Origin: Blastopirellula marina
GTDB lineage: Bacteria; Planctomycetota; Phycisphaerae; Sedimentisphaerales; UBA12454
DNA length: 27,146 nucleotides
NCBI GenBank assembly: GCA_020721975.1
Contig: DYLR01000012.1
Coordinates: forward strand, 1 to 27,146
Reading direction: 5' to 3'
Part shown: positions 1,771 to 18,582 of the stretch, in pieces
How the letters are laid out: each line of letters starts with the position of its first letter
Numbering within the stretch: the stretch's first letter is position 1
Notes under the pieces: model-generated
Seen by the model: the letters and a program-made list of their open reading frames with translations, nothing else
Told to the model about the DNA's origin: nothing
Database searches by the model: none
Position numbers and translations under genes: made by a program

Positions 1771-4056
1771 ATGAACTCGGCTCCAACGAATGTCGAGAAG
1801 CTGCGGGCGATACCTATTATAATTGTTGCGACCTTTTTGCGGTCTATATACCTGCTGACGGTTACAGGCACGGTCTTTGTGCTGTTTCTCGATGAGCTTG
1901 GTATTGATAAGGCCCGCATAGGTGTCGTGATGTCTATCGCGCCGTTTATCGGCATCATTTCGCTTGTCATTGTGCCGATTGTCGAACGCAGCGGCCTGAA
2001 GCGTACGACGAAAATTTTCTGGATGCTGCGCGTACTTATAACCATCCTGATTCCCGTTACGCCGCTGATTATGAAATACACGGGTGAAACCGGCGTATTC
2101 GTCTGGTTGTCAGCCACGCAGTGTGCATTTGCCGTTTCGGGTTATATCGCAGTAACAGCTTATGCCTCGTGGTATCAGGAGCTTGTTCCGGACAGACTCC
2201 GCGGCAAAACTGCGGCTATCAATTTTATCGGCATAGGCTTATCGACGATAATCACGCTGGCTGCAGCGGGCTATATCACCGACAGATTTGCGGGTCTCAA
2301 GCCGTTTGTTTTTTTAATGATTGGAGGGCTGGTAATCGGGTTTGTTGCTGAAGTGGTGTTAAGCCGGCTGCCAGGCGGACAGCCTATATTGAGGCAGGAA
2401 CATCACAAGACTCATCTGCAGTTCATCAAAGATGCCCTGTGTGATAAGAACTTTATGCTGATGATGGCGGCTCTTGTGCTGATTAATATCGCCGTTTTTG
2501 GTGCGGGTGCGTTTGTGCCGTTGTATCAAAAGCAGATTCTCGGTCTTTCGGCCAGCCAGATTATGTTCTCTGCAATGTGTTATTCTGTGGCAGTGCTTGG
2601 GGCGTATTATTTTTACGGTTGGGCGGCGGACAGATACGGAGCAAAGCCTGTGCTTATTTTCGGCATTGCCAATCTTGTGCCGAGCGGGATATTCTGGTAT
2701 CTGACAAAACTGCCGGCAGGCAATGAAGGTCGCTTTGCCGCGACGATATTTGTGGCTGTGTTTTTTGCCCTCACACAGGCCGGATGGGTAATTGGTTTTG
2801 ACCGTTATGTTTATAATACGCTCATTCCGGTAGGCAAAAAAACTTCATATCTTTCCATTCAGCACGCCGTCGGCGGCGTTGCGGCCGGTGTCGGGCCGCT
2901 TGTGACAGGCTGGCTGATTGAAATATGCAAGCCCCTGAATTCAACGACCATAATGGGGGTGAAACTCGATGCGTATATTCCGTTTTTTGTGTTATATGGG
3001 GTTTTGACGTTTGCGAGTGTTATGCTGCTGAAAAGACTCAAACAGGACAGTCAGATTACAACCCAGCAGTTTGTAGGTATGTTTTTTCAGGGCGACCCGC
3101 TTACGGCACTGCATTCAATGGCTCGTTACCGGATGGCCAAGGGCGAATCTGAACGCATTGACAAAACATCCGATATGGGGATGTCCAGCAGTCCGCTTAA
3201 TGTTGAGGAGCTTTTAGAAGCCCTGCACGACCCGAGTTTTAACGTTCGTTATGAAGCCGTTATAGCGATATCGCGTCGCAAGCCGCATCCCAAACTTACC
3301 GAGGCGTTGATTAACATTTTGCTTGGCCCGGACCTTGAGCTTGCCGCCTCGGCGGCCTGGGCGCTTGGGCGTATCGGCGACAAATCCGCTATCGGCGCTC
3401 TTCGTGAATGTCTTGCTGTGCCGTATCCGCTGCTGCAGGCGCGTGCTGCGCGGACATTGGGCGCTTTGGGCGACGTTGAAAGCTCTCCGATGCTGCTGGA
3501 CTGGCTGCGCAGCGACATTGACCCGACACTGAAAAGGGCATGCGCATCGGCTCTTGGCGCCCTGCGCGTGCCGGCTGCGCTGCCGGATATTTTCAATCTG
3601 CTGCTTACAAACAAGCGTGCGAGTTTTCGCGGCGAGCTTACAATGGCGATGGCGCGAACGGTTGGGTCTGAAAGTCAGTTTATTAACCTGTGGCGAAGAA
3701 TGAACGAAGATACCGCGACCGCAGAGGCTCATCAGGTAATCGATACCTGCAAATCTCTTGCAAAACTGAAAATCAGCGAGGGTCCGATTGTCGAGCGATT
3801 GAACGATTGCGCGGAGAAATTTGCCTCAGGCCGGACGGCTGAAGCCACAAAAATAATTTGCGATATCGCCGTCGAGCTGCCTACCGACGGTATCGATCAT
3901 CATATTATAAAGCTGATGAATCTGTGCAGACAGCAGCTTTTAAGTGTTCCGCAGCAGGACCACTGTCTGCTTGCTCTTTTGCTGCATATTATTTCGACAA
4001 TGCTCCGCCGGCAGGTAGTGCAGGTCAAGCGGGCAGGAAAAACAAAAAATATTTAA
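1771..4056 (+). CDS. Fusion of an MFS transporter (N-terminal ~420 aa, 12 predicted TM helices) with a C-terminal HEAT-repeat domain (PBS-lyase/E-Z type HEAT repeats).
   Basis: The N-terminal half is hydrophobic with an MFS-like helix pattern. The C-terminal ~280 aa contains repeated HEAT-like units: LLEALHDPSFNVRYEAVIAI, AASAAWALGRIGDKSAIGAL, ARAARTLGALGD and KRACASALGALR. Confidence 0.75.
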   Translation: MNSAPTNVEKLRAIPIIIVATFLRSIYLLTVTGTVFVLFLDELGIDKARIGVVMSIAPFIGIISLVIVPIVERSGLKRTTKIFWMLRVLITILIPVTPLIMKYTGETGVFVWLSATQCAFAVSGYIAVTAYASWYQELVPDRLRGKTAAINFIGIGLSTIITLAAAGYITDRFAGLKPFVFLMIGGLVIGFVAEVVLSRLPGGQPILRQEHHKTHLQFIKDALCDKNFMLMMAALVLINIAVFGAGAFVPLYQKQILGLSASQIMFSAMCYSVAVLGAYYFYGWAADRYGAKPVLIFGIANLVPSGIFWYLTKLPAGNEGRFAATIFVAVFFALTQAGWVIGFDRYVYNTLIPVGKKTSYLSIQHAVGGVAAGVGPLVTGWLIEICKPLNSTTIMGVKLDAYIPFFVLYGVLTFASVMLLKRLKQDSQITTQQFVGMFFQGDPLTALHSMARYRMAKGESERIDKTSDMGMSSSPLNVEELLEALHDPSFNVRYEAVIAISRRKPHPKLTEALINILLGPDLELAASAAWALGRIGDKSAIGALRECLAVPYPLLQARAARTLGALGDVESSPMLLDWLRSDIDPTLKRACASALGALRVPAALPDIFNLLLTNKRASFRGELTMAMARTVGSESQFINLWRRMNEDTATAEAHQVIDTCKSLAKLKISEGPIVERLNDCAEKFASGRTAEATKIICDIAVELPTDGIDHHIIKLMNLCRQQLLSVPQQDHCLLALLLHIISTMLRRQVVQVKRAGKTKNI

Positions 4057-6236: not shown

Positions 6237-8747
6237 ATGGCTTTTGTTGAAAAAGGGCTTGGCGGAAAGTGGAAATTCAGGGAATTTCCAATTGCAGCCC
6301 GGCGTATGCGCGACCTTGACGAAGGACAGTGGCTAGATTGTGAAATTCCTTCTTCAATCTACGCAAATCTCATGGCTGCCGGACTGACAGACCCGTTTGA
6401 TTTTCGTGCAAATCCCGAAAAATACGACCATATAAGCGACAAACCCTGGATATATAAAACTGAATTTGACATACAGCCGGATATGCAGGCATGCGACAGG
6501 GTCGAATTATTTTTTGAAGGGCTCGATACCTTTGCCCAGGTTTGGTTCAATGAGAGACTGCTGGGGCGGACGGATAATATGTTTATTCCGCACAGCTTTG
6601 ACGTAACCGCGCTGCTGAAGAATACCGACAACAGGCTGCTTGTCAAATTTGAGCCAGCCCGGCAGCACGCCGATAAACTCATGCGCCGCTATGGAGCGAT
6701 GGGCAGTAATTTTTCTTTTTATCCTTCACGTGCCTACGTTCGCAAGGCGCAATATCAGTTCGGCTGGGACTGGGCTCCTGCGATGCCCGGTTGCGGCATA
6801 TTCAGGCCTGTTTTTCTGCGCGGATTCAAAAAGGCCTGTATTGAAGACGTTTGCGTGCGAACAATTAGTTGTTCTGAAAACACAGCCGACGTACAGATTG
6901 CCCTAAGAATCGGCCGGACCGGCAATCAGATGTATTCCGCAGCCGTTTCCGTAAAAGGGCATCATACGGATATAAAACAAACCGTCAGTTTTGAACCCGT
7001 CATGGATAGACATTCCATAATTATTCGCATAGAAAACCCGAAGCTTTGGTGGCCGGCAGGCATGGGGCATCCGTCGCTTTACAATCTTAATATCGATTTA
7101 ATCGACGGCGTTGACGTTATTGATACCTTTAATACACGGTTCGGCATTCGTGAAATAAAACTGAAACGCGAAGATTTCCGCAACGGTCAGTCGTTCGGGT
7201 TTGAAATCAACGGCAGAGATGTAAACATCTGCGGAGCGGACTGGATAGGGCTTAGCCTTATGCCGGGTACGCAGACCGTTGACGATTACCGCAGGATGCT
7301 CGCAATGGCACGCGGGGCAAATATGAATATGCTGCGCGTGTGGGGCGGAGGATATTATGAAAACAGCGAATTTTACGACATCTGCGATGAAACAGGACTG
7401 ATGGTCTGGCAGGACTTTATGTTTGCCTGTGCGTTTTATCCCGACCGTCAGTGGTTTATGCAGAAGATAGAACACGAGGCCCGCACTATTGTAAGGCGGC
7501 TTGGAAATCATCCATGCATTGCGATATGGTGCGGCAATAATGAAATCGACTGGCTCTACGAAATGAACAGTTTCGGTTCAGGCCGGAAATTTTACGGCAG
7601 AAAAATATATCATGAGCTTTTGCCGTCCATAATGCGCGAACTGATTCCCGACAGCGAATATATTCCTTCTACTCCCCTTGGACCGCCGGGAAAGGCCAAT
7701 GACCCCGATTATGGTACGGTTCATAACTGGCATATCTGGTCGGGCTGGGAATCGACGCGGGAATATATTTCGCCGCGAAATGCTGTGCCGGGTTTTGTGA
7801 GCGAATTCGGGATGCAGTCCGTACCGTGCATGCAGACGCTTAAAAGTTTTGTGCCTGATACGGACATGAAAATTTCGTCCCGGGGCATTGAAAAACACAA
7901 TTATCATATTGACGGCAACAGTCGTCTGTACAGATATATAACGGAACTGTTTCCGCCGCCTGCGGATTTGGACGACCTGATTTATCTTTCGCAGCTTACT
8001 CAGGCTCGCGGGGTAAGCAGCTATATCCGGTTTTTGCGTTCACATCCGCAGAAAAACTGTGGCGTTATGTTCTGGCAGCTTCACGATTGCTGTCCTGCCG
8101 TAAGCTGGTCGGCGGTGGATTATTTGGGCAGACCCAAGGCTTTGTGGTATTATGCAAAACGTTCTTACGAACAGACTCTTATATCGATTTTCCCGGAATA
8201 CGCGGAAAACTACTACTGTGCCGATTTGAAACTTGAAAAAATTGCCGTGTCTGTTTTGAATCAGTCCGGCGAGGCGCTTACCGGCACGCTTTTGTGCAGA
8301 CTGATGGATATGACGCTCAACATTCTTGATGAGTATTCAACAACGGTATCGATTACGCCGCAATCGGTTTTTAAGACCGCCGGACTTCCGAGGTCTTTTC
8401 TTGTTCCGCCGGACGCTTCGTCAAATTATATTCTTGTTCAATTAAAGTCCGGCGACGTTGTCGCTGCCGAGGATTGCTTTTTTTATCTGCCGGACAAATA
8501 TATAAACTGGCCTCAACCTCAATTTACTTATTCAACAACCTCTATTGACAGCGGCAGAGTGAATATGCTGATTGAACCTAAAACAGCCGTGAAGGATTTG
8601 TATATCGATTCGCCGTATGCCGCAGATAACTTCATCGACCTGATTAGCGAAAGAGTCTATGAAGTGGAGTTATTGTCTGATTTTCGGGGCAAGCCGGCGT
8701 TTCGTTCGGTTAATTCGACGATAAGAAAAATCAGGCGAATCGACTAA
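6237..8747 (+). CDS. Glycoside hydrolase family 2 beta-mannosidase.
   Basis: The 836-aa protein has the WCGNNE acid/base motif (IAIWCGNNEIDW) and the VSEFG nucleophile motif (GFVSEFGMQS) in GH2 beta-mannosidase spacing. The N-terminal sugar-binding-like domain beginning WKFREFP is typical of ManB-type GH2 enzymes. Confidence 0.8.
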   Translation: MAFVEKGLGGKWKFREFPIAARRMRDLDEGQWLDCEIPSSIYANLMAAGLTDPFDFRANPEKYDHISDKPWIYKTEFDIQPDMQACDRVELFFEGLDTFAQVWFNERLLGRTDNMFIPHSFDVTALLKNTDNRLLVKFEPARQHADKLMRRYGAMGSNFSFYPSRAYVRKAQYQFGWDWAPAMPGCGIFRPVFLRGFKKACIEDVCVRTISCSENTADVQIALRIGRTGNQMYSAAVSVKGHHTDIKQTVSFEPVMDRHSIIIRIENPKLWWPAGMGHPSLYNLNIDLIDGVDVIDTFNTRFGIREIKLKREDFRNGQSFGFEINGRDVNICGADWIGLSLMPGTQTVDDYRRMLAMARGANMNMLRVWGGGYYENSEFYDICDETGLMVWQDFMFACAFYPDRQWFMQKIEHEARTIVRRLGNHPCIAIWCGNNEIDWLYEMNSFGSGRKFYGRKIYHELLPSIMRELIPDSEYIPSTPLGPPGKANDPDYGTVHNWHIWSGWESTREYISPRNAVPGFVSEFGMQSVPCMQTLKSFVPDTDMKISSRGIEKHNYHIDGNSRLYRYITELFPPPADLDDLIYLSQLTQARGVSSYIRFLRSHPQKNCGVMFWQLHDCCPAVSWSAVDYLGRPKALWYYAKRSYEQTLISIFPEYAENYYCADLKLEKIAVSVLNQSGEALTGTLLCRLMDMTLNILDEYSTTVSITPQSVFKTAGLPRSFLVPPDASSNYILVQLKSGDVVAAEDCFFYLPDKYINWPQPQFTYSTTSIDSGRVNMLIEPKTAVKDLYIDSPYAADNFIDLISERVYEVELLSDFRGKPAFRSVNSTIRKIRRID

Positions 8748-8804: not shown

Positions 8805-10790
8805 CTACATTCCCGGCATCATTCCGGGCATCATCATACCCGGCATTCCGGGCATACCTTCCATACCGCCCGGCATTGTTCCCGGCTTAGGTATTTCAAA
8901 GCCGCGTCCGGGTGTACCGGCAGGCGTTCTAAATTCCACCGCCGCCTTTACCTTTTCCTGTAAATCTTTATAAGTCTGCAAAACGCTGCTCGGCCAGAAT
9001 CGCTCGCCTATCGCCAGACTTGCAAGCTGTTGAGGATTATAACTGTACACAGCCGAATAGTATTCCTGCTGTTTTAACCCCTTTGACGCATCCCAGTCGT
9101 TCACTTTGATTACATCAACCAGTATCGCACCGGTTGTATAATCAATTTTTTGAGGTTCACTGCTGCCGTAGCCAGAGGCGCCGTCGGATGTCGTGGTTTC
9201 CTCGACATATTTGCCTATCATTTCGCCGCATTTAACCGGGAAATCCTTTGCCGACCATCGACCCAGATGATACTTCATTACCTCGATTGTGGCGGTTTTT
9301 GCAGGGTCGCGCCATTCTTTGGGGAACAGGTGCATTCGCAAAGGCGTTTTAATGGGTTCGGTCGGAACAGAGAATTTGCTCCAGAGTATCACCTCGCTAT
9401 TAAGCTGCTGCTGTTCTTCCACAACATAATTTTTGCCGGCCACCGGATTAAATACGCCCGCACGAATTCTGTACTGATATTCTTTCCCGCTTTCGGTTGT
9501 ATCATCATAAGCCCAGACAACGACCTTTTTGAGATTTTCGAGTTTATTTCTTTCATCCAGTTTCAGGCTTAAAAATTCATTCTCGATTTTCTGTATGCCC
9601 GTTGAGTCAAAATCGCTTTGGCCGGTTCTTTTCGATACAGACGGTTCTGTGCGTCTGATTTGCTCGGCAGGCTGTGTTCGGACTCCGGTCTGACGCGTCG
9701 GCGCGGCAGGCGTCATTCCCCCCGGCCCGCCCATACCCATGCCGGGCATTCCCATTCCGCCCATACCCATATCCGGCATTGCTCCGCCTGTGCCTGTGCC
9801 TCTTATAGATGTTGTACGGGTTTCCCGTGCGGAAGTGCGGCGGTTGCGTTCTTCTATTCTTGCGCGTTTTTCCGCTTCAAGCTGTTCGCGTTTGCGGGCT
9901 TCTTCCTGTTTGGCTATCAGCTCCTCACGGGTTTTCCAGAGTTTCGGGCAAAGCCACTGTGTCCCCGGATATGCGTAATTGTAAACCGCCGGCTGCAAAA
10001 TCTCCTTCTGATACTGCTCGGCGCCGAAACTTATAAGTACTATATCCATATTGACCTTCAGCTCGTCTATGCTGTGCGGCACAGCCAGTTCTTTTTGCAG
10101 GGGAAAATTCCGGGCCTCCGGCACAGGCGCCCACTGACTCCATTGACCGTCTTCGAGCTTTTCCCGTCTTTCAAGCTGAACATCGGCAAATACCGGCCTG
10201 GCATACCGCTCGTCCCGCCATTCCTTGCGCACCGACGCCGCGGCAAAACTTTCCCGGAATTTCCTGGCAATACCCTCAAAATCAACCGTACACTGCACAC
10301 TAACCAGGTCGATATCGTTTAAGTCTGAAGTATCCTGTGAAAACGATGCATTCGGATTCAGCGGGTCGTCGGGTATATGTGTTACTATCTGCACCATTGC
10401 CGCGTGAACGTCGTTCACGTCCGGAATATCCGGCAAGTGATATTTTCTGTCTTCAAGACTTACCGTGCCTTCATCATAATAAGGCAGACTCATCGTTTTT
10501 GACAAATCCACGCCTTTGATGCTTTTGCTGATGTTTTCGGCAAATAATTCGCATTTAGGCACAAAATTTCCGGCTCGATTCGGCTCGCCGCGAATCTGCT
10601 CATAGAGTTTGTCGGCTTTTGTGCTGATATACCGGTCTATTTCGCCCGGGGCGCGAGGCCTGCCGTCAACTTTGACCGCGGGCGCACGAAGCACATTAAA
10701 AAATATTATCACAAGACTGATAATTACCGCTATAGCGATAACCGCCTTATCCAGATATTGTTCAAATATACTGCTTTTTTTTCTGCTCAT
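8805..10790 (-). CDS. Membrane-anchored protein (N-terminal TM helix) with a large extracytoplasmic region, a coiled-coil segment and Met/Gly/Pro-rich tracts. The tracts are an internal MPDMGMGGMGMPGMGMGGPGGM and a C-terminal tail ...MPGGMEGMPGMPGMMMPGMMPGM-stop. It is the third gene of the PilMN-fusion cluster.
   Basis: The 661-aa ORF has a hydrophobic helix at aa ~16-36, a charged coiled coil ELIAKQEEARKREQLEAEKRARIEERNRR, and low-complexity MGP tracts. The DNA carries 9-nt ccgggcat-type repeats at 8808-8900 and 9716-9790. Confidence 0.65.
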   Translation of the reverse strand: MSRKKSSIFEQYLDKAVIAIAVIISLVIIFFNVLRAPAVKVDGRPRAPGEIDRYISTKADKLYEQIRGEPNRAGNFVPKCELFAENISKSIKGVDLSKTMSLPYYDEGTVSLEDRKYHLPDIPDVNDVHAAMVQIVTHIPDDPLNPNASFSQDTSDLNDIDLVSVQCTVDFEGIARKFRESFAAASVRKEWRDERYARPVFADVQLERREKLEDGQWSQWAPVPEARNFPLQKELAVPHSIDELKVNMDIVLISFGAEQYQKEILQPAVYNYAYPGTQWLCPKLWKTREELIAKQEEARKREQLEAEKRARIEERNRRTSARETRTTSIRGTGTGGAMPDMGMGGMGMPGMGMGGPGGMTPAAPTRQTGVRTQPAEQIRRTEPSVSKRTGQSDFDSTGIQKIENEFLSLKLDERNKLENLKKVVVWAYDDTTESGKEYQYRIRAGVFNPVAGKNYVVEEQQQLNSEVILWSKFSVPTEPIKTPLRMHLFPKEWRDPAKTATIEVMKYHLGRWSAKDFPVKCGEMIGKYVEETTTSDGASGYGSSEPQKIDYTTGAILVDVIKVNDWDASKGLKQQEYYSAVYSYNPQQLASLAIGERFWPSSVLQTYKDLQEKVKAAVEFRTPAGTPGRGFEIPKPGTMPGGMEGMPGMPGMMMPGMMPGM

Positions 10791-10868
10791 TTACGTTTAC
10801 TCATCGGTAAAATACCGCAGCGTTTTTCAGCCTGCCGGATGAAACGACGGATTACTCCCTGAAAATTA

Positions 10869-12125
10869 TCATATTCCGGTGTTTTCCGTCGCCGTTTCTG
10901 CCGTCGGCGTTTCCACCGGCTGATTCAGGCTGCTCTTCACTGCGTCAGGTTTTATTTTATCATATCCTGCGCGAACAAAAACATATTCGCAGACGCAGGT
11001 AAGCTCGACCACAGGCTTTTTGCCGTAGCGATAAAGCCGGTGAGCCTCGCTTTCCCTGTCCGCTGCGTAGCTTTGTATGCCCATAACGGTAATCTGATTA
11101 TGCACAAACTGCTTTTCAGGTTCGTCGCCTTTATATCCCCTCCAGACGTGCTTTTTTTCACTGCAAAGCTCGCTGATAAAATTCATAACCTGGTCTGTCT
11201 CGACGACTACACCCACGGCAAAGTGTACTACGTCAATCGTGTCGTTGCACAGCCTTGTTGTCCACGCATCGGCAAGGCCGCCTGTGAAGCTGGTAACATA
11301 TACAGGCATTTGAACCTTCGCCTGCTGCTCGCGTGCCGTGCTTTCCGGTGCAGTTGCCATAATAATGGTGCTTTCAAAACTTACGCCGAGCAGTCTTTTA
11401 ACCGGCGATTCGAGTACGTTTTTGGCCTTGCTGTTAATTTTTATAATCGTATCGGCCAGGTCCTGCTGTATCCACCAGGCCAGTTGTGTGTACCAGCAGT
11501 CCTGCACGGCTGCATCGACCCCGGCATACTGCCAGTCCAGCCAGATCTCATAACCGACAAAGTTATCCGTTCTGGCATAACATTTTATACCCAGCGCCTT
11601 CTGCTTGCACAATTCGTTAATTATTGCCTCGGTATTGTCTGTCTGGTCTGTACCGCCGTATCTGAATGCGTCTCTGGCCGTGCTTTTACTGCCGGTGGCA
11701 AACTCGATTTCCCTGCTTGTGGGAGCTTCACCGGACTGCATTTTCTTAGGCAGCTCTTTAAATGCTTTCAATGCATTTTCGCCAAAATCGCTGAATATCT
11801 GCCGCGAAGTTTCCTGCGGTTTCGGAAAAATTTTATAACTTAAAAGTTCCCTTTGCGTTGTCTGGGCGGCAAGTTCAGCCACTTTATTGGCGTCCTGCGC
11901 GGCTTTATCCTGAATTTCCTGTTCAACCTGCCACTGCTGCATGGATACCGGATTTCTGCTGATAGAATCGATCCTGTCGGCCAGTGAAACGCTTTGCTGC
12001 ATCATTTTGGCCAGTCCGCGTTTACCTGTGAATACCAGCAGTCCCAGCAGTACCGCCACAAGCACAAGACCGGCCGGTATCAGCAGCATAATATTCTTTC
12101 TGATAAAATTTTTTATAAATTTCAT
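10869..12125 (-). CDS. Membrane-anchored protein (N-terminal TM, coiled coil, then a globular domain). By position it is PilO/GspM-like in the cluster, but its function is unknown.
   Basis: The 418-aa ORF has a TM helix LLIPAGLVLVAVLLGLLVF near the N-terminus followed by a Q/E-rich coiled coil. It is co-oriented and tightly spaced with the flanking cluster genes. The plus-strand ORF 11040..11843 is judged an antisense shadow. Confidence 0.55.
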   Translation of the reverse strand: MKFIKNFIRKNIMLLIPAGLVLVAVLLGLLVFTGKRGLAKMMQQSVSLADRIDSISRNPVSMQQWQVEQEIQDKAAQDANKVAELAAQTTQRELLSYKIFPKPQETSRQIFSDFGENALKAFKELPKKMQSGEAPTSREIEFATGSKSTARDAFRYGGTDQTDNTEAIINELCKQKALGIKCYARTDNFVGYEIWLDWQYAGVDAAVQDCWYTQLAWWIQQDLADTIIKINSKAKNVLESPVKRLLGVSFESTIIMATAPESTAREQQAKVQMPVYVTSFTGGLADAWTTRLCNDTIDVVHFAVGVVVETDQVMNFISELCSEKKHVWRGYKGDEPEKQFVHNQITVMGIQSYAADRESEAHRLYRYGKKPVVELTCVCEYVFVRAGYDKIKPDAVKSSLNQPVETPTAETATENTGI

Positions 12126-12140
12126 ATTATGTTAGAGCCT

Positions 12141-14480
12141 TTAAGATTGCGTCTGCTCAGGCATCTGCGGCGCATCCCGCCACAGCAGCTTGATTTTAAT
12201 CCTGAACCATTTGTCGCGCACAATATATTTGGGTTTTTTGAATACGTCATATATCGGATTGCCCTGCTGGTCGAGCTGTACCGACCGGCTGATTTCTTCC
12301 TTTGTCATAGGGTCGATAAGTATTTTTTCAGATGAAATCTGCTCAAAGCCTCTGCCTCTGGTTGAGGTGCTGCCGCGGCCTGTCGCCGGCGAGGTTGCGG
12401 CCGGTGTAGTTTCGCCGTCGGCGACTTTTATATCTTCCACGCCTATGCCTTCGGGCATCGGCACATCAATAGCCACATCCCCTGTCTCAAGCACCCAGTG
12501 AGCCGGCATACCCCTGCCGTAAAGTTCAAAAGGACTGTTGCCGTCGATGAGCTTGTCAAGGTTCGCCAGACGTGTAAGAAATCCCCATTTGCTTTTATTG
12601 TCTCCGACACCTGCGGGGTCAAGCAGCTCATCTATGTCCATATACGGGCTGTATCCTTCGATAACAACTGTAAAGCCCGGTCCGCTTTTCTGGCCCGGCG
12701 CTTCAAGCGACTGATCTGTACTGCCGGAATAACCCTGAGTCTGAATTTTTCTGGCCGATTCTCCGCCTCTGCTGCTGCCTCCGCCGTACCCCCCGGGCGC
12801 CCCCATCGGACCTTCAAAACCGCCAGGCCCCATCATACCTGGACCCATCATACCAGGTCCCATCATACCAGGCACTGCCATACCGCCTCCGGTGGTGCTT
12901 CTGGTTGATTCTCTCGTGGCAGTCTGGCCGAACTGAGCGCTTGCAACATTCGATGCAAAGTTAATTTGAATGCCGGTAACAAATATCTGTTTGCGTTCTT
13001 TCCGGGGTATTGATTTAACAGCCTCAACGTCGCCTTCCGCGAAAGCCTTGTAAAGATTGCTCTGCTGAGGATTGTTTTCCGCGTTCGGCAGACACATTGC
13101 AATGGTCTCGTGAATTTGCGGTATTATCTGGCGGTACTTGAACAAATCGGAATATCTGTTTATTTTCTGCTCATATTCGCTGCGGCGGTTTTGTTCCTGC
13201 TGGAATTTATTTTGTGCCTCCTCGGCCTGACTGAGAATATTTTCAACTCTGCGGCGATACTCCTGCGCATCCTTGCTGTAATAGGCCTTTTTCTCAATTC
13301 CGGTTTTTACCATACTTATCAGCATTGCAGCCACAAGCAGACCGGCCGCTATCACCAGATACAGCGATTTTTGCTTCCACGTCATACTTAGCGCAATTTT
13401 TCGCGGCAAAAGATTCGTTTGCACTTTGGCCAAACCAAGAGCCTGCAGGCCGAGACCATAAGCTATACCCATATCGCAAATGTTTTCGTGCATCTGGGCG
13501 GCAGAAACATTTTCCGCGGGCTTGAGTTTGTCGAATGACTCCGGCTTAATGACGGGAAGCTGGAGCGTTTGCTGCAGGAACTTTATTAAACCCTGCATTT
13601 TGAATCCGCCGCCCATCACGATTACCTTTGTGAAATCCGTCTTTCTGTGGCTGCTGCTGTAAAAGCCTAAACTGCGCTGAATTTCTGCCGAGAAATCCGT
13701 GAACACCGGCCGCATTGAATGGAATATCTGCCGGGCATATTTGCTCATCGGCGCAGTGCGTTTGAGTTTTTCCGCCTTGGCAAAATTCAGCTTAAATGCG
13801 TCGGCCACCGCCCGTGTGAACGAATTTCCGCCAAGCGGTATTGTTCGCTGCCAGACTGTGTTTTGAGTACAGACCACAAGATTGGTGTTCTCCGTACCCA
13901 TATCGAGAATGATTATCGCCTTGCTGTCATCCTGGGGCATGTCGTTACGGTCGTAATGCGCATAATTATAAAGAGCCATCGGCCCCATCTGCACCACCGA
14001 CACCCTGATGCCCTCTGCGCTGAAATTTTCAAGAAAATCGTTGATAAGCTCGTTCTTAATGGCAAAGATTCCAACCTCAGTATCGGGACTGTCCGACTTT
14101 TCCATTATCTGCCAGTCCCACTCGACCTCGTTGATGTCGAACGGTATCTGCTGAACAGCTTCAAATTTAATTATCTCAGGAATGCGTTTTTGCTCGACAG
14201 GCGGAAGTTTGATAAATCTTGCAAAACTGCTCTGGCCCGGCACTGAAATCGCCGCGGGGTCCTTCTTCAGGTCGTTGCGGGCAACAAAGGTACTCATCGT
14301 TTCCTGCATCACCGCGGTCTTTTCCTCCGCGGATACTTCCTCACCGCTGAGCATCTTTGAATGCTCAATATAGTCAAAACCGATTACCTGTACGCCATCC
14401 GCCGTCGGAAGCATACGCAGGGCCTTTAACGAATTACTGCCTATATCGATCGCCCAGACCGACCGCATTGCTGAGGCCAT
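12141..14480 (-). CDS. PilM-like actin-fold ATPase domain fused to a PilN-like TM + coiled-coil segment (GspL-like architecture). A ~400-aa C-terminal extension follows, containing (GPGMM)3 and a distal globular domain.
   Basis: The N-terminus AIDIGSNSLKAL (phosphate-1), IILDMGTENTNLVV and VIVMGGGFKMQGLIKFLQQTL match PilM ATPase-fold motifs. After aa ~360 come a TM helix SLYLVIAAGLLVAAMLISMV and a PilN-like coiled coil. Further on is MAVPGMMGPGMMGPGMMGPGGFEGPMGAPGGYGGG. A GGAAGG SD lies 4 nt upstream of ATG 14480. Confidence 0.75.
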   Translation of the reverse strand: MASAMRSVWAIDIGSNSLKALRMLPTADGVQVIGFDYIEHSKMLSGEEVSAEEKTAVMQETMSTFVARNDLKKDPAAISVPGQSSFARFIKLPPVEQKRIPEIIKFEAVQQIPFDINEVEWDWQIMEKSDSPDTEVGIFAIKNELINDFLENFSAEGIRVSVVQMGPMALYNYAHYDRNDMPQDDSKAIIILDMGTENTNLVVCTQNTVWQRTIPLGGNSFTRAVADAFKLNFAKAEKLKRTAPMSKYARQIFHSMRPVFTDFSAEIQRSLGFYSSSHRKTDFTKVIVMGGGFKMQGLIKFLQQTLQLPVIKPESFDKLKPAENVSAAQMHENICDMGIAYGLGLQALGLAKVQTNLLPRKIALSMTWKQKSLYLVIAAGLLVAAMLISMVKTGIEKKAYYSKDAQEYRRRVENILSQAEEAQNKFQQEQNRRSEYEQKINRYSDLFKYRQIIPQIHETIAMCLPNAENNPQQSNLYKAFAEGDVEAVKSIPRKERKQIFVTGIQINFASNVASAQFGQTATRESTRSTTGGGMAVPGMMGPGMMGPGMMGPGGFEGPMGAPGGYGGGSSRGGESARKIQTQGYSGSTDQSLEAPGQKSGPGFTVVIEGYSPYMDIDELLDPAGVGDNKSKWGFLTRLANLDKLIDGNSPFELYGRGMPAHWVLETGDVAIDVPMPEGIGVEDIKVADGETTPAATSPATGRGSTSTRGRGFEQISSEKILIDPMTKEEISRSVQLDQQGNPIYDVFKKPKYIVRDKWFRIKIKLLWRDAPQMPEQTQS
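12828..12872. repeat. Three perfect or near-perfect tandem 15-bp units (cccatcatacc[tggag]) encoding GPGMM x3 on the minus strand.
   Basis: The units cccatcatacctgga, cccatcataccaggt and cccatcataccaggc are read directly from the sequence. Confidence 0.8.
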
Positions 14481-14612
14481 AATGCCTTCCCCGTTTAACG
14501 ATTTGTCAACTTCCCAACATACGAATTTATCGCCCCGAAAATAAGCCAGGGCTTGTCGTCTTTCATAATTTCACTTGTCTAAAATTCCCAAACTTACTAA
14601 TTATATCAATAT

Positions 14613-15908
14613 ATGATTTTCTATGCCATACATACCTTCGGCTGTAAAGTCAACCAGTACGAGGGACAGCAAATCGCCCAGCTTTGCGATAATTTAGGCC
14701 TAAAAAAGGCCGATAACTGCCAAAATGCCCAAGTCGTTATCGTGCATAGCTGCTGTGTTACCAGTTTGGCATCTGCCAAATGCCGTCAGGCAATAAATCG
14801 AACAAAAAAACTCAGCCCCAATGCCGCGATTATCCTTACCGGATGTCTGCCTAAAGCCAATTTGCCGGAATTGCACAATCTTGGCAATATAAGGCTTGTC
14901 GGCAATATACACAATCTGAATAAAGAAATCAGCGAAATTGTTACCCACCCAGAATTTTATATTAAAACAAAAACTGAACATAAAATCAATGAAAAAAGGG
15001 ATTTGCCGCAATTAGAGCCGCTAAAATCCTTTACCGGCCATACAAGGGCATTCTTGAAGGTTCAGGACGGCTGCGATGGTTTTTGCAGCTACTGCATCGT
15101 GCCGTATGTTCGTAAAAATATCTGGTCGAAACCGCTTACCGATGCGGTAGCAGAAGCGCAACATCTTGTCAGTTCAGGACATAAAGAAATTGTTCTCAGC
15201 GGCATTCATCTTGGCGCCTATGGCCGCAGCAGCGTTATTCGCAAAGGGTGGGATGAAAAGGATAGACTGGCGGAACTCGTCAAAACTGTTGCACAAGTAC
15301 CTGGTCTGGAAAGACTTCGGCTCAGTTCCCTTGAACCCGCTGAACTTAGCGATGCTCTGCTTGATGTAATAGCCAGCTACAAAAATATTATGCCGCACCT
15401 GCACTTGTCTCTCCAGAGCGGGTCTGATACTGTTTTGGAGTCAATGAATCGAAAATATTCCATTGGTGATTTTTTAAAGGTTGTTGAAAAGGCGAAATCA
15501 AGATTGGACAGGCCGGCAATTACAACGGATATTATTGCAGGTTTCCCGACAGAAACCGATGAAAATTTCGAGCAAACAATGAATATAATTGGCCGGGTGG
15601 GTTTTTCGAGAATTCATGTTTTTCCGTATAGTATGCGAAAGGGTACTGCCGCTGAGAAATTTGGGGATACGGTATCTGCCGCTGTAAAGCGGGAAAGAGT
15701 AAATCAGATTAAACAGCTCGGCTCTGAACTTGCCCGGAAATTTGCCGCGAGATTCATAGGCGAAAGGGTAACTGTTTTAGTTGAGGATGAGAAAAATCGC
15801 ACAGGTCTTTGTGAGCGATATTATACTATGAGAGTTCTTGGCAGGCCTGTTCAAAAAGGCCAGATTATCACCGGCACAATCCAGCCGGACGGCTGGTCAA
15901 TTCTTTAA
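14613..15908 (+). CDS. mtaB: Radical-SAM methylthiotransferase of the MiaB/MtaB family, most like MtaB (tRNA t6A37 methylthiotransferase).
   Basis: The N-terminal UPF0004 domain IFYAIHTFGCKVNQYEGQQI resembles MtaB. The radical-SAM CxxxCxxC cluster (GCDGFCSYCIVPY) and a C-terminal TRAM-like region are present. Length is 431 aa. Confidence 0.75.
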   Translation: MIFYAIHTFGCKVNQYEGQQIAQLCDNLGLKKADNCQNAQVVIVHSCCVTSLASAKCRQAINRTKKLSPNAAIILTGCLPKANLPELHNLGNIRLVGNIHNLNKEISEIVTHPEFYIKTKTEHKINEKRDLPQLEPLKSFTGHTRAFLKVQDGCDGFCSYCIVPYVRKNIWSKPLTDAVAEAQHLVSSGHKEIVLSGIHLGAYGRSSVIRKGWDEKDRLAELVKTVAQVPGLERLRLSSLEPAELSDALLDVIASYKNIMPHLHLSLQSGSDTVLESMNRKYSIGDFLKVVEKAKSRLDRPAITTDIIAGFPTETDENFEQTMNIIGRVGFSRIHVFPYSMRKGTAAEKFGDTVSAAVKRERVNQIKQLGSELARKFAARFIGERVTVLVEDEKNRTGLCERYYTMRVLGRPVQKGQIITGTIQPDGWSIL

Positions 15909-16001
15909 CTGGCATTGCTCCAAACCTCGCGAGAATCGCGGGTTAGCTTAAACTTTCCGATTTTTTCGTAAACGCTTTCATAGCACTGCTGTTTTGTTCA
16001 G

Positions 16002-16151
16002 CATGACGCGGTCTGCAAAACGTTTTGGTCTTAATATATTCGCTTACCTTGAAGATGTATTGACAAGATTGCCCGCCCAGCCGGTCAATAGATTACAGGA
16101 ACTATTGCCGGATGAATGGGCCAAGCGTAATAACAAGCCGCAATACAACTA
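16002..16151 (+). mobile_element. Remnant of the C-terminus of an IS66-family transposase (~40-50 aa), not an intact gene.
   Basis: In-frame translation gives ...SAKRFGLNIFAYLEDVLTRLPAQPVNRLQELLPDEWAKRNNKPQYN-stop. This matches the conserved IS66 transposase tail pattern (AKLNGxxPxAYLxDVLxRxxxHPxNRIxELLPWNW) from memory. No upstream transposase body is present. Confidence 0.5.
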
Positions 16152-16245
16152 AACAACTAACACACCTATTTAAAAATCTTGTACCCACACCGGACGCTTA
16201 CGATATTAAAATATCCACAAGACGGTTCGTGTATAAGGAATTTTT

Positions 16246-16299
16246 CTTGTTATTACAAAAAATGGTGTTCTCTTGTAATAAGTGTTTTTCTTATTACAA
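16246..16299. promoter_or_regulatory. Operator-like palindrome set upstream of the Fic gene. TTTTTCTTGTTATTACAA is a direct copy (16241-16258), TTGTAATAA an inverted copy (16273-16281), and TTTTTCTTATTACAAG a direct copy (16285-16300).
   Basis: The 9-mer TTATTACAA occurs twice in direct orientation and once as its reverse complement, within 60 bp immediately 5' of ATG 16324. Confidence 0.35.
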
Positions 16300-16323
16300 G
16301 TTCAATAATAAGGTTTTTTTACG

Positions 16324-16962
16324 ATGAAACGTGCAAGGACAGGGCAATACGTTGCGATATCGACAGTCGGCAAAAAGGTCAAGGCGTTTATTCCTGATGC
16401 GCTGCCGCCTGTACCGGCTCTTGAGATTTCGCCCAATTTGCAGGAATCCATCGACCGTGCGTTATTGGCTCTCGGCAGATTAGACAGCATTTCGATACTT
16501 TTGCCGGACATGTCTTTATTTCTTTATATGTATATCCGCAAGGAAGCTGTGCTATCCTCACAAATTGAAGGTACGCAGTCTTCGCTGTCGGATTTACTCT
16601 TGTTTGAGATTGATGCCGCTCCGGGCGTTCCGCTTGACGATGTGCAGGAAGTATCGAATTATGTTGCTGCGATGAATCACGGCCTAAAGAGGATACGCGA
16701 AGGATTCCCTGTTTCTGTACGGTTAATCAAAGAAATTCACAATGTTCTACTTTCCAGGGGCAGGGGCAGCAACAAAGAGCCTGGGCAGTTCCGCAAAAGC
16801 CAAAACTGGCTCGGCGGTACAATATCTGGCAATACGGTGTTTGTGCCTCCTCCGCCGGGCGAAGTGGCACAGTGTATGAGCGATTTGGAGAAATTTGTTC
16901 ACGATAAACCGCAGAAAATACCCACGCTGATTAAGAGCCTATCGAGCATAGCGCTGAATTGA
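16324..16962 (+). pseudogene. Fic/DOC family protein, 3'-truncated. The N-terminal ~210 aa are present, but the ORF stops just before the HPFx(D/E)GNGR active-site motif.
   Basis: The sequence ...EGTQSSLSDLL...GQFRKSQNWLGG...FVPPPPGEVAQCMSDLEKFVHD...IPTLIKSLSSIALN-stop follows the conserved Fic N-terminal layout. The next expected element (HPFxDGNGR) is absent in all three downstream frames. Confidence 0.55.
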
Positions 16963-17886: not shown

Positions 17887-18582
17887 ATGAAAAAGACTTA
17901 TTTGGGCATTTTAATGGTTATGCTGGTTGCGCTGCTGACAATTTCAGTATTCGCACAACCCTGGGGCGGCAAAGAAAGGCATGGTAAAGGCCCCGGCAGT
18001 CCTGACAAGCCCCCTATGCCTGCAGGTCACGGCGGCGGAGTTGAAATGATTTTGCGAATGAAAGACAAGCTCGGCCTGACCGACGAGCAAATAACAAAAC
18101 TTCAGGCGCTAAAGCCGCAGGATGAACCGAACAACAGAGAGTTAATGAAGGAAAAACACCAGGCACTTCAGGCTGCTATCGAGTCCGGCGATAAGGATGC
18201 AATACGTACGGCTGCTGCTGCAATCGGAAATGCCATCGGTGAACGGGCAATCAAAGCAGTGGAAAACAAGGCCAAAGTCGATTCAATTCTGACCGATGAG
18301 CAAAAGGCGACTCTCAAGGAAATGAAAGAGAAAAGACAGCAAAAAATGAGGGAAATGGCTGAAAACGAACAAGGTCGACCTGGACCAATGGGTCGCGGCC
18401 CCGGCGGATTTGAAATGGGAAACGAACAAAGACCGGAACCTGCAACAATATTCGCCAGAATTGATACCGACGGTGACGGCTCTATCAGCTTTGAGGAGTT
18501 CACCGCCCACGTTGGGAAAATGGAAGAGCATCGCGGGCGTCCCGGTCCTGCTGCCGAAACTGAAGACAGCATCGAAAAGTAA
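17887..18582 (+). CDS. Secreted/periplasmic protein with a signal peptide, LTXXQ (Spy/CpxP-like) motifs and a C-terminal EF-hand calcium-binding loop.
   Basis: MKKTYLGILMVMLVALLTISVFA is a signal-peptide-like N-terminus. LTDEQITKLQAL and LTDEQKATLKEM are LTXXQ motifs. DTDGDGSISFEEF is a canonical 12-residue EF-hand loop. Confidence 0.7.
   Translation: MKKTYLGILMVMLVALLTISVFAQPWGGKERHGKGPGSPDKPPMPAGHGGGVEMILRMKDKLGLTDEQITKLQALKPQDEPNNRELMKEKHQALQAAIESGDKDAIRTAAAAIGNAIGERAIKAVENKAKVDSILTDEQKATLKEMKEKRQQKMREMAENEQGRPGPMGRGPGGFEMGNEQRPEPATIFARIDTDGDGSISFEEFTAHVGKMEEHRGRPGPAAETEDSIEK

What the first reader, a model, noticed from the sequence alone, without database searches (positions are those of the whole stretch)
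8805..14480. Three-gene envelope cluster led by a PilM-PilN fusion with Met/Gly/Pro-rich tracts and no pilin, secretin or ATPase partner
The first gene fuses a complete PilM actin-fold ATPase domain to a PilN-like TM + coiled-coil segment. This is the architecture known from T2SS GspL. It then adds ~400 aa containing (GPGMM)3 and a C-terminal globular domain. The next two co-oriented genes also encode single-pass membrane proteins with coiled coils and large non-cytoplasmic domains. The third has two MGP tracts, one of which forms its very C-terminus (…PGMMMPGMMPGM-stop). Canonical T4P/T2SS loci would also carry pilO/pilP/secretin, a pilin and an ATPase nearby. None is in the window. The cluster abuts a convergent GH2 gene on one side and mtaB on the other. 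The shared, unusual Met-rich low-complexity motif across co-transcribed envelope proteins points to a dedicated trans-envelope scaffold of unknown function. Possible roles include an atypical pilus/competence or secretion platform, or a Cu(I)/Ag(I)-binding Met-motif mesh by analogy with CusF/CopC/Ctr1.
Basis: partly seen in the sequence, partly recalled or inferred. Interest (0 to 1): 0.8.

Follow-up and report, generated by a model that had tools for sequence, protein, structure and literature searches.

The report
Split pilus-like membrane platform operon
Three co-oriented membrane-protein genes of a Phycisphaerae planctomycete most likely encode the inner-membrane platform of a type IV pilus / type II secretion-like machine. 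It is a distant relative of the Akkermansia Amuc_1100 locus, so it is a diverged version of a known machine, and its Met/Gly/Pro tracts are lineage-specific repeats.

The parts
12141..14480 (-). Gene A, 779 aa: PilM-PilN fusion (cytoplasmic PilM domain, TM helix, periplasmic C-terminal part)
   Evidence: ORF. PilM_2 E 7.5e-38 and TIGR01175 above cutoff. NF045709 Amuc_1101 family, aa 6-460, E 1.1e-75, 255.7 bits against a cutoff of 650. More than 5000 homologues of 700-800 aa, those named coming from Phycisphaerae, Sedimentisphaerales, Anaerohalosphaera or unclassified Planctomycetota.
13443..14450 (-). PilM actin-like (ASKHA) domain of A, aa 11-346
   Evidence: Pfam PilM_2 covers 2-338 of 340 profile positions. 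D12 (nearly invariant) and G14, G195, G290 and G291 (invariant) lie at the nucleotide-binding motifs (alignment A3; motif assignment from own knowledge).
13404..13415 (-). N-L-L-P motif (aa 356-359) just before the TM helix, the PilN N-terminal signature
   Evidence: L357, L358 and P359 are invariant and N356 nearly invariant in 35 homologues. That INLLP is the PilM-binding N-terminus of PilN is my own knowledge.
13308..13364 (-). Single TM helix of A (aa 373-391)
   Evidence: Hydropathy maximum 2.58.
12789..12899 (-). Met/Gly/Pro tract of A (aa 528-564), inside a variable linker that interrupts the periplasmic domain
   Evidence: Tract. The linker ranges from absent to about 80 aa in alignment A3. 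DNA tandem repeat at 12823-12872, period 15, 3.3 copies.
12144..12683 (-). Conserved C-terminal periplasmic domain of A (aa 600-779); fold not modelled
   Evidence: Invariant G602, F603, G609, P612, W632, G633, D756, W758 and F759. No Pfam PilN hit.
10869..12125 (-). Gene B, 418 aa: bitopic Amuc_1100/PilO-like protein (TM helix aa 12-33, then long helices and an α/β domain)
8805..10790 (-). Gene C, 661 aa: bitopic protein (TM helix aa 16-34) with an α/β domain, a long helix, a disordered linker, a β-rich module and a disordered tail
   Evidence: No family hit in 55 members. Model pLDDT 73. 548 clusters at 50% identity match with E<=1e-30.
9006..9533 (-). β-rich module of C (aa 420-595), FnIII-like and GspC-HR/PilP-like; candidate secretin-binding end
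9609..9815 (-). Disordered linker of C (aa 326-394), containing the internal MGMGG-type tract
   Evidence: pLDDT below 50. Tract aa 330-366. Tandem repeat 9727-9775, period 15. Length and composition vary among orthologues.
8808..8936 (-). Disordered C-terminal tail of C (aa 619-661), ending ...PGMMMPGMMPGM
   Evidence: pLDDT below 50. Tandem repeats 8808-8846. Met is enriched about 4-5 fold in orthologue tails, but at least 4 Met in the last 30 aa occurs in only 17 of 67 species and 54 of 116 cluster representatives.

Best explanation
The triad encodes the inner-membrane assembly or 'alignment' platform of a type IV filament-class machine (the type IV pilus / type II secretion family). It is the Phycisphaerae counterpart of PilM+PilN, PilO and PilP/GspC, and a distant relative of the Akkermansia Amuc_1101/Amuc_1100 'pilus-like' (MUL2) locus.

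Inferred mechanism:
- A's cytoplasmic PilM domain binds nucleotide and docks the motor ATPase and the polytopic platform protein.
- Because PilM and PilN are fused, the NLLP segment that normally tethers PilN to PilM is covalently attached.
- A's TM helix and helical stretch pair with those of B, as PilN pairs with PilO. Their periplasmic domains form the ring around the filament base.
- C is anchored by its own TM helix. It reaches across the periplasm through a long helix and a disordered linker, and presents a β-sandwich, HR-like module to the N0 domain of an outer-membrane secretin.
- The secretin, ATPase, platform protein, pilins and prepilin peptidase would be encoded elsewhere in the genome.
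- The Met/Gly/Pro segments sit in disordered linkers and tails. They most likely act as flexible spacers or sticky tethers, not as a conserved catalytic or metal site.

What is shown: domain identities, topology elements, synteny and tract distribution. What is inferred: the protein contacts and the existence of distal partners.
For: - A: PilM_2 E 7.5e-38, TIGR01175 above cutoff, Amuc_1101 family E 1.1e-75 over aa 6-460. Conserved NLLP motif before the TM helix.
- One TM helix in each protein and tight gene spacing.
- A-B-C order in 64 of 83 loci. Thirteen loci show only A-B; each has under 2 kb of contig left after B, less than the length of C. The other six are cut at the upstream end, have a split B or C ORF, or (L030) end just after the B match. 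231 species genomes carry a B relative.
- In Akkermansia the homologous cluster sits with a pilin-like gene and the secretin Amuc_1098, and is described as a pilus-like, secretion-system-like mucin utilisation locus (PMC13174399; PMC4960237; PMC5332112; PMC12418764).
- Stand-alone pilMNOP(Q) operons remote from pilin and ATPase genes are usual in type IVa pilus systems (own knowledge).
Against: - No secretin, pilin, ATPase or platform gene lies within ±10 kb in any of about 85 loci. I could not scan whole genomes, so the existence of partners is assumed.
- B and C match no PilO, PilP, GspM, GspC, Amuc_1100 or Amuc_1099 sequence model. PDB sequence searches with profiles of B and C found no pilus or secretion protein.
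- A scores far below the Amuc_1101 equivalog cutoff, and its periplasmic domain matches neither the PilN model nor the C-terminal third of the Amuc_1101 model.
- A's periplasmic fold was not modelled.
Confidence: 0.7

Rival explanations
1. The platform has the same architecture, but the machine imports glycans or other macromolecules, as proposed for Akkermansia MUL2, and is not a motility, adhesion or competence pilus. The filament or pseudopilus would pull polysaccharide through the secretin into the periplasm.
For: B's closest structure is Amuc_1100, and A is related to Amuc_1101 (MUL2B). MUL genes, including genes that encode pili, are reported as needed for mucin products to accumulate in internal compartments (PMC12418764; PMC13174399). 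A GH2 β-mannosidase-like gene is the convergent neighbour here and in at least 22 loci. Sedimentisphaerales are CAZyme-rich, and planctomycetes import polysaccharides by an unknown route (PMC11131199).
Against: The GH2 link may be plain inherited synteny, since the other conserved neighbours are housekeeping genes (MtaB, AdoHcy hydrolase). MUL2 itself is described as probably mediating attachment. No pilin-like Amuc_1102 gene or secretin is adjacent. C shows no tie to Amuc_1099 (1 of 55 members, E 0.18).
Confidence: 0.2
2. The triad is an autonomous trans-envelope scaffold that no longer works with a filament, ATPase or secretin. Examples would be an envelope tether or a division/morphogenesis factor built on a membrane-anchored actin-like protein in these FtsZ-less bacteria.
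For: The genomic context is always housekeeping, with a divergent mtaB in 53 loci. No filament genes are nearby. The proteins are much larger than PilN, PilO and PilP, with extra domains. Amuc_1101 was once annotated as FtsA, and A hits the FtsA and MreB Pfam models weakly.
Against: The PilM model scores far better than FtsA or MreB (E 7.5e-38 against 3e-10 and 1e-3). The NLLP motif, the PilO/Amuc_1100-like fold and the HR-like module are all parts of filament machines. Nothing found here points positively to division.
Confidence: 0.1
3. The Met-rich tracts form a periplasmic Cu(I)/Ag(I)-binding mesh, so the cluster is a metal-tolerance device.
For: MxM and MM motifs are dense in A and C. Met is enriched 4-5 fold in the C tails of orthologues.
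Against: Tracts are absent from about 90% of species-level orthologues. The tracts shown contain no His (that His usually accompanies Met in copper sites is my own knowledge). They are labile DNA repeats. In other lineages the tails are (GPPGY)n, acidic/Tyr-rich or basic. No copper or silver resistance gene family recurs next to the triad; one locus pair has an RND-type efflux set with weak CusB/CzcB-like hits about 2 kb downstream.
Confidence: 0.03

Closest known systems
Type IVa pilus alignment subcomplex PilM-PilN-PilO-PilP (with PilQ), e.g. Pseudomonas aeruginosa, Myxococcus xanthus, Thermus thermophilus
   Same: A PilM actin-like domain. An NLLP motif plus TM helix plus helical stretch (PilN-like). 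A bitopic partner with a PilO-like periplasmic fold. A third component with a β-sandwich resembling the secretin-binding HR domain. An operon separate from pilin and ATPase genes.
   Different: PilM and PilN are fused. All three proteins are 2-3 times larger, with extra domains and disordered linkers. C is anchored by a TM helix, not lipid-anchored like PilP. No secretin gene follows. The PilN, PilO and PilP sequence models do not match.
Type II secretion assembly platform GspL-GspM-GspC
Akkermansia muciniphila Amuc_1098-1102 'pili-like' cluster / MUL2 (Amuc_1102 pilin-like, Amuc_1101 PilM-like, Amuc_1100, Amuc_1099, Amuc_1098 secretin)
   Different: A scores far below the equivalog cutoff. 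B and C show no sequence match to the Amuc_1100 or Amuc_1099 models. There is no upstream pilin-like gene and no downstream secretin. The proteins are larger. The host is a Phycisphaerae planctomycete, outside the Verrucomicrobiota in which MUL2 conservation was surveyed (PMC13174399).

Membership tests
Type IVa pilus PilMNOP(Q) alignment subcomplex | PilM: cytoplasmic actin-like ATP-binding protein | tested here: met
   Pfam PilM_2 E 7.5e-38 over 2-338 of 340 positions. TIGR01175 scores 137.8 bits against a cutoff of 133.
Type IVa pilus PilMNOP(Q) alignment subcomplex | PilN: N-terminal INLLP peptide, TM helix, coiled coil and ferredoxin-like periplasmic domain | tested here: inconclusive
   The NLLP motif (aa 356-359) is conserved and is followed by a TM helix and a helical stretch. 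The Pfam PilN model hits 0 of 35 members. The periplasmic fold was not modelled.
Type IVa pilus PilMNOP(Q) alignment subcomplex | PilO: bitopic protein with a coiled coil and a ferredoxin-like periplasmic domain | tested here: met
Type IVa pilus PilMNOP(Q) alignment subcomplex | PilP: lipoprotein with a β-sandwich HR domain that binds the secretin N0 domain | tested here: inconclusive
Type IVa pilus PilMNOP(Q) alignment subcomplex | Secretin gene (pilQ) at the end of the operon | tested here: not met
   The gene after C is a convergent GH2 gene. No secretin family recurs within ±10 kb in about 85 loci.
Type II secretion GspL-GspM-GspC platform | GspL cytoplasmic domain (Pfam T2SSL / TIGR01709) | tested here: not met
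   T2SSL scores 22.1 bits, below the 25.5 cutoff. TIGR01709 scores 16.5, below 65. The match is weaker than to PilM.
Type II secretion GspL-GspM-GspC platform | GspC: bitopic protein with an HR domain contacting GspD N0 | tested here: inconclusive
Type II secretion GspL-GspM-GspC platform | Located within a gspC-M operon with the secretin, ATPase and pseudopilins | tested here: not met
   None is present in the window or in related loci.
Akkermansia Amuc_1098-1102 / MUL2 pilus-like system | Amuc_1101-family PilM-like protein (NF045709, equivalog cutoff 650 bits) | tested here: not met
   255.7 bits, E 1.1e-75, covering only profile positions 5-457 of 608. A is clearly related but is not an equivalog member.
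Akkermansia Amuc_1098-1102 / MUL2 pilus-like system | Amuc_1100-like protein encoded next to the PilM-like gene | tested here: met
Akkermansia Amuc_1098-1102 / MUL2 pilus-like system | Amuc_1099-family protein (NF042425) | tested here: not met
   Only 1 of 55 C-family members hits, at E 0.18. No structural comparison was possible because the AFDB library was unavailable.
Akkermansia Amuc_1098-1102 / MUL2 pilus-like system | Flanking pilin-like gene (Amuc_1102) and secretin (Amuc_1098) | tested here: not met
   Only 132 bp separate A from the divergent mtaB-like gene. GH2 follows C. No prepilin motif is present.
Periplasmic Met-motif Cu(I)/Ag(I) binders (CusF, CopC, PcoA-type) | Met motifs conserved among orthologues and a copper-handling gene context | tested here: not met
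   Tracts occur in 6 of 65 A and 7 of 63 C orthologues. No copper-resistance gene family recurs among the neighbours.

The most novel reading that the evidence does not exclude
The Met/Gly/Pro segments are co-evolving, mutually sticky low-complexity modules. They arise together in two or more subunits of the same machine, in several separate lineages, and sometimes share the same repeat unit with different codons. They would form a homotypic mesh or tether in the planctomycete periplasm, for example a flexible gate or spacer in a glycan-importing type IV filament machine related to Akkermansia MUL2.
Probability: 0.12. Interest if true: 0.75.

Novelty: new variant of a known kind. Interest (0 to 1): 0.45.

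Why it matters
- It gives a working annotation to two sizeable families of 'hypothetical' envelope proteins. B occurs in at least 231 species genomes. C has 548 clusters (50% identity) at E<=1e-30.
- It shows that the fold of Amuc_1100, the much-studied Akkermansia effector protein, belongs to a PilO-type platform component with relatives in Planctomycetota. This places the MUL2-type apparatus deeper in the PVC superphylum than the Verrucomicrobiota survey reported.
- It offers a candidate for the envelope-spanning hardware of CAZyme-rich Phycisphaerae, whose route for polysaccharide uptake is unknown.
- The paired gain of matching low-complexity tracts in two subunits is a small, testable case of co-evolving disordered regions.

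Tried and rejected
- Sequence-level links for B and C all failed:
  - Pfam and NCBIfam scans of the window proteins and of 43 B and 55 C family members.
  - Profile searches of PDB sequences with 43-, 14- and 101-sequence alignments.
- hhalign between A's periplasmic region, B and the two C domains gave probabilities of 2% or less, so the periplasmic parts are not detectable paralogues.
- Foldseek of the C model against the PDB gave nothing below E 0.01.
- The AFDB50 fold search, which might have reached Amuc_1099, was unavailable.
- The Davey 2023 MUL paper is not held, so MUL functions are cited second-hand.
- I looked for a fourth conserved partner among flanking genes. Only MtaB, GH2 and AdoHcy hydrolase recur. 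A 620-670 aa membrane protein in 9 loci lies several kb away and is not a secretin.
- Recent gene conversion as the cause of identical A and C repeat peptides was rejected, because 5 of 9, 7 of 10 and 3 of 5 degenerate codons differ.
- The promoter and terminator scan was uninformative: counts were near the shuffled expectation.
- No literature on pili in Phycisphaerae was found.
Full report
**What is there.** Three minus-strand ORFs fill 8805-14480. They are A (12141..14480, 779 aa), B (10869..12125, 418 aa) and C (8805..10790, 661 aa), separated by 15 and 78 bp. Each protein has exactly one strongly hydrophobic segment: A at aa 373-391, B at aa 12-33 and C at aa 16-34. A carries ...VPGMMGPGMMGPGMMGPGG... 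within aa 528-564. C carries ...MPDMGMGGMGMPGMGMGG... within aa 330-366 and ends ...MPGMPGMMMPGMMPGM-stop. These are the only such tracts in any six-frame ORF of at least 60 aa in the window. Each is encoded by a short DNA tandem repeat, mostly of period 15: 12823-12872, 9727-9775 and 8808-8846.

The neighbours are a convergent GH2 gene (6237..8747) and a divergent MtaB-like radical-SAM gene (14613..15908). The rest of the window holds housekeeping genes. It has no pilin, secretin or ATPase, and no prepilin leader motif in any frame.

**Protein A.** Pfam PilM_2 covers aa 11-346 (E 7.5e-38). TIGR01175 pilM scores just above its cutoff (137.8 against 133). FtsA, MreB and T2SSL match much more weakly. 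The best NCBIfam match is NF045709, 'Amuc_1101 family PilM-like pilus complex protein'. It scores E 1.1e-75 over aa 6-460, which spans the PilM domain, the TM helix and the helical stretch. At 255.7 bits it is far below the 650-bit equivalog cutoff, and the last quarter of the model is unmatched.

No Pfam PilN hit appears in any of 35 family members. However, L357-L358-P359 are invariant and N356 is nearly invariant, and they sit directly before the TM helix (alignment A3). From my own knowledge of PilM-PilN complexes, INLLP is the N-terminal PilN peptide that binds PilM. I therefore accept 'PilM-PilN fusion' at the level of motif and architecture.

The MGP tract lies in a linker that ranges from absent to about 80 residues. 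The linker interrupts a conserved periplasmic domain (aa ~448-517 and 600-779).

**Protein B.** Neither the window protein nor any of 43 relatives matches a Pfam or NCBIfam family. A profile search of PDB sequences also found nothing. The AlphaFold model is good (pLDDT 80.6). It shows a TM helix running into long helices, followed by an α/β domain.

**Protein C.** No family matches C or any of 55 relatives. NF042425, the Amuc_1099 family, appears once at E 0.18, which is not evidence. PDB sequence profiles gave nothing relevant. The model (pLDDT 73) has these parts:
- a TM helix;
- an α/β domain (aa ~120-270);
- a 40-residue helix (aa 282-323);
- a disordered stretch (aa 326-394);
- a β-rich module (aa 420-595) that carries the family's most conserved motif;
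- a disordered tail (aa 619-661).

**Conservation and context.**
- A has more than 5000 database relatives. The closest 120 are 620-834 aa, and those that carry a name come from Phycisphaerae, Sedimentisphaerales, Anaerohalosphaera or unclassified Planctomycetota.
- B relatives occur in 231 species-representative genomes.
- The C profile finds 548 clusters (50% identity) at E<=1e-30.
- In 83 fetched loci the order A-B-C is seen 64 times. Thirteen loci show only A-B; each has less than 2 kb of contig left after B, which is shorter than C. The other six are cut at the upstream end, have a split B or C ORF, or (L030) end just after the B match.
- The only recurrent neighbours are the divergent MtaB-like gene (53 loci), a convergent GH2 β-mannosidase-like gene (22 loci) and AdoHcy hydrolase (12 loci).
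- The same block occurs in the complete genome of Anaerohalosphaera lusitana and in more divergent contigs.
- No secretin, pilin or ATPase family recurs within ±10 kb.

**Interpretation.** The parts map one-to-one onto the inner-membrane platform of type IV filament machines. A corresponds to PilM+PilN (or GspL), B to PilO (or GspM), and C to PilP (or GspC). In Akkermansia the related genes Amuc_1101 and Amuc_1100 sit between a pilin-like gene (Amuc_1102) and the abundant secretin Amuc_1098. That cluster is described as pili-like and, as MUL2, as a secretion-system-like locus involved in mucin use (PMC5332112; PMC4960237; PMC13174399; PMC12418764).

From my own knowledge, pilMNOPQ operons are normally remote from the pilin and ATPase genes. 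Only the missing secretin is therefore unusual here. The most likely reading (about 0.7) is a split system that is otherwise of the standard type, with its partners encoded elsewhere. Whether the machine makes a pilus, secretes enzymes or imports glycans cannot be decided from these data. The Akkermansia link, the GH2 neighbour and the CAZyme-rich lifestyle of Sedimentisphaerales (PMC11131199) make glycan handling a reasonable secondary guess (about 0.2).

**The Met/Gly/Pro tracts.** They are not conserved. By a strict criterion (at least 4 Met and at least 75% M/G/P in 20 residues), they occur in 34 of the 120 closest A homologues. In the species-level set they occur in only 6 of 65 A, 0 of 78 B and 7 of 63 C orthologues. 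C tails are always disordered and of low complexity, but the composition varies: (MPG)n, (GPPGY)n, acidic/Tyr-rich or basic. Met is enriched 4-5 fold overall. Together with the DNA-repeat origin and the lack of any recurrent copper-resistance neighbour, this argues against a conserved Cu(I)/Ag(I) site.

Two results keep the tracts interesting.
- They co-occur. Among 55 genomes with full-length A and C, 5 have tracts in both, 1 in C only (there B has one), 0 in A only and 49 in neither. Fisher's test gives 1.7e-6, but it is not phylogenetically corrected. The carriers sit at five or more separate places in a B-protein tree, with 35-50% B identity between them. None of 546 flanking genes has a tract.
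- In some genomes A and C use the same unit: MPGMFGPGMDPG in A. lusitana, GMGMPGMGMPGMGMPGM in L028 and PGMMGPGMM in L013. Synonymous differences at 5 of 9, 7 of 10 and 3 of 5 degenerate codons rule out recent gene conversion. Same-genome k-mer sharing exceeds cross-genome sharing (p about 0.01-0.02, n=7).

In the window itself A and C share composition but not the repeat unit. A caveat is that the window's LTXXQ/EF-hand protein shares GPGGFE with A. A genome-wide style of periplasmic disordered regions is therefore not excluded.

**Verdict.** The cluster is a diverged PilMN/PilO/PilP-GspC-type platform related to the Akkermansia Amuc_1100 locus. It is a new variant of a known kind, not a new class of scaffold. 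Interest is moderate (0.45), for three reasons. It annotates two sizeable unnamed families. It ties Amuc_1100 to a PVC-wide platform. It also reveals paired low-complexity tracts that deserve a proper test.

Noticed in passing
window 14481-14612 and 14613-15908; loci L001-L086: A divergent MtaB-like radical-SAM methylthiotransferase gene sits directly upstream of A, 132 bp away, here and in 53 related loci. This is an unusually stable head-to-head pairing of a tRNA-modification gene with the triad.
   Followed up: partly
window 6237-8747; L050, L085, L086 and others: A GH2 β-mannosidase-like gene is the convergent downstream neighbour of C here and in at least 22 related loci, including divergent ones. 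This may be inherited synteny or a functional link to glycan handling.
   Followed up: partly
L001, L013, L028 (A and C genes): Within single genomes the low-complexity repeat unit is identical in A and C (12, 9 and 17 residues) but is encoded with different synonymous codons. In L059 the tract is on B and C instead of A and C.
   Followed up: partly
window 17887-18582: An LTXXQ-motif plus EF-hand protein carries Gly/Pro/Met-flavoured low-complexity stretches and shares the hexapeptide GPGGFE with A's linker. This hints at a genome-wide style of periplasmic disordered regions.
   Followed up: no
window 15994-16962: A Fic-family ORF stops after 212 aa, containing Fic_N and only the start of the Fic domain. 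About 900 bp without a sizeable ORF follow. A 52-aa ORF upstream may be a transposase fragment (not tested). Together these look like mobile-element or pseudogene debris.
   Followed up: no
window 1771-4056: A 761-aa protein fuses an MFS transporter domain (aa 29-337) to several HEAT repeats (aa ~480-600), which looks like an unusual transporter-scaffold fusion.
   Followed up: no
L082 (CAYFYW010000386.1): A 2-kb contig carrying A and B relatives is labelled 'uncultured Nitrospirales bacterium'. This is probably a binning or labelling error and not evidence for the triad outside Planctomycetota. Many 'Pirellulales' and 'Planctomycetaceae' labels on binchicken MAGs may be similarly loose.
   Followed up: no
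L023, L036, L052, L055, L058, L073, L077, L079, L081 (2-7 kb downstream of C): A conserved 620-670 aa membrane protein with the N-terminal motif KSFMAVGPTLHYSH recurs downstream of the triad in nine loci, after AdoHcy hydrolase. It has only a weak TPR hit and no secretin domain.
   Followed up: partly
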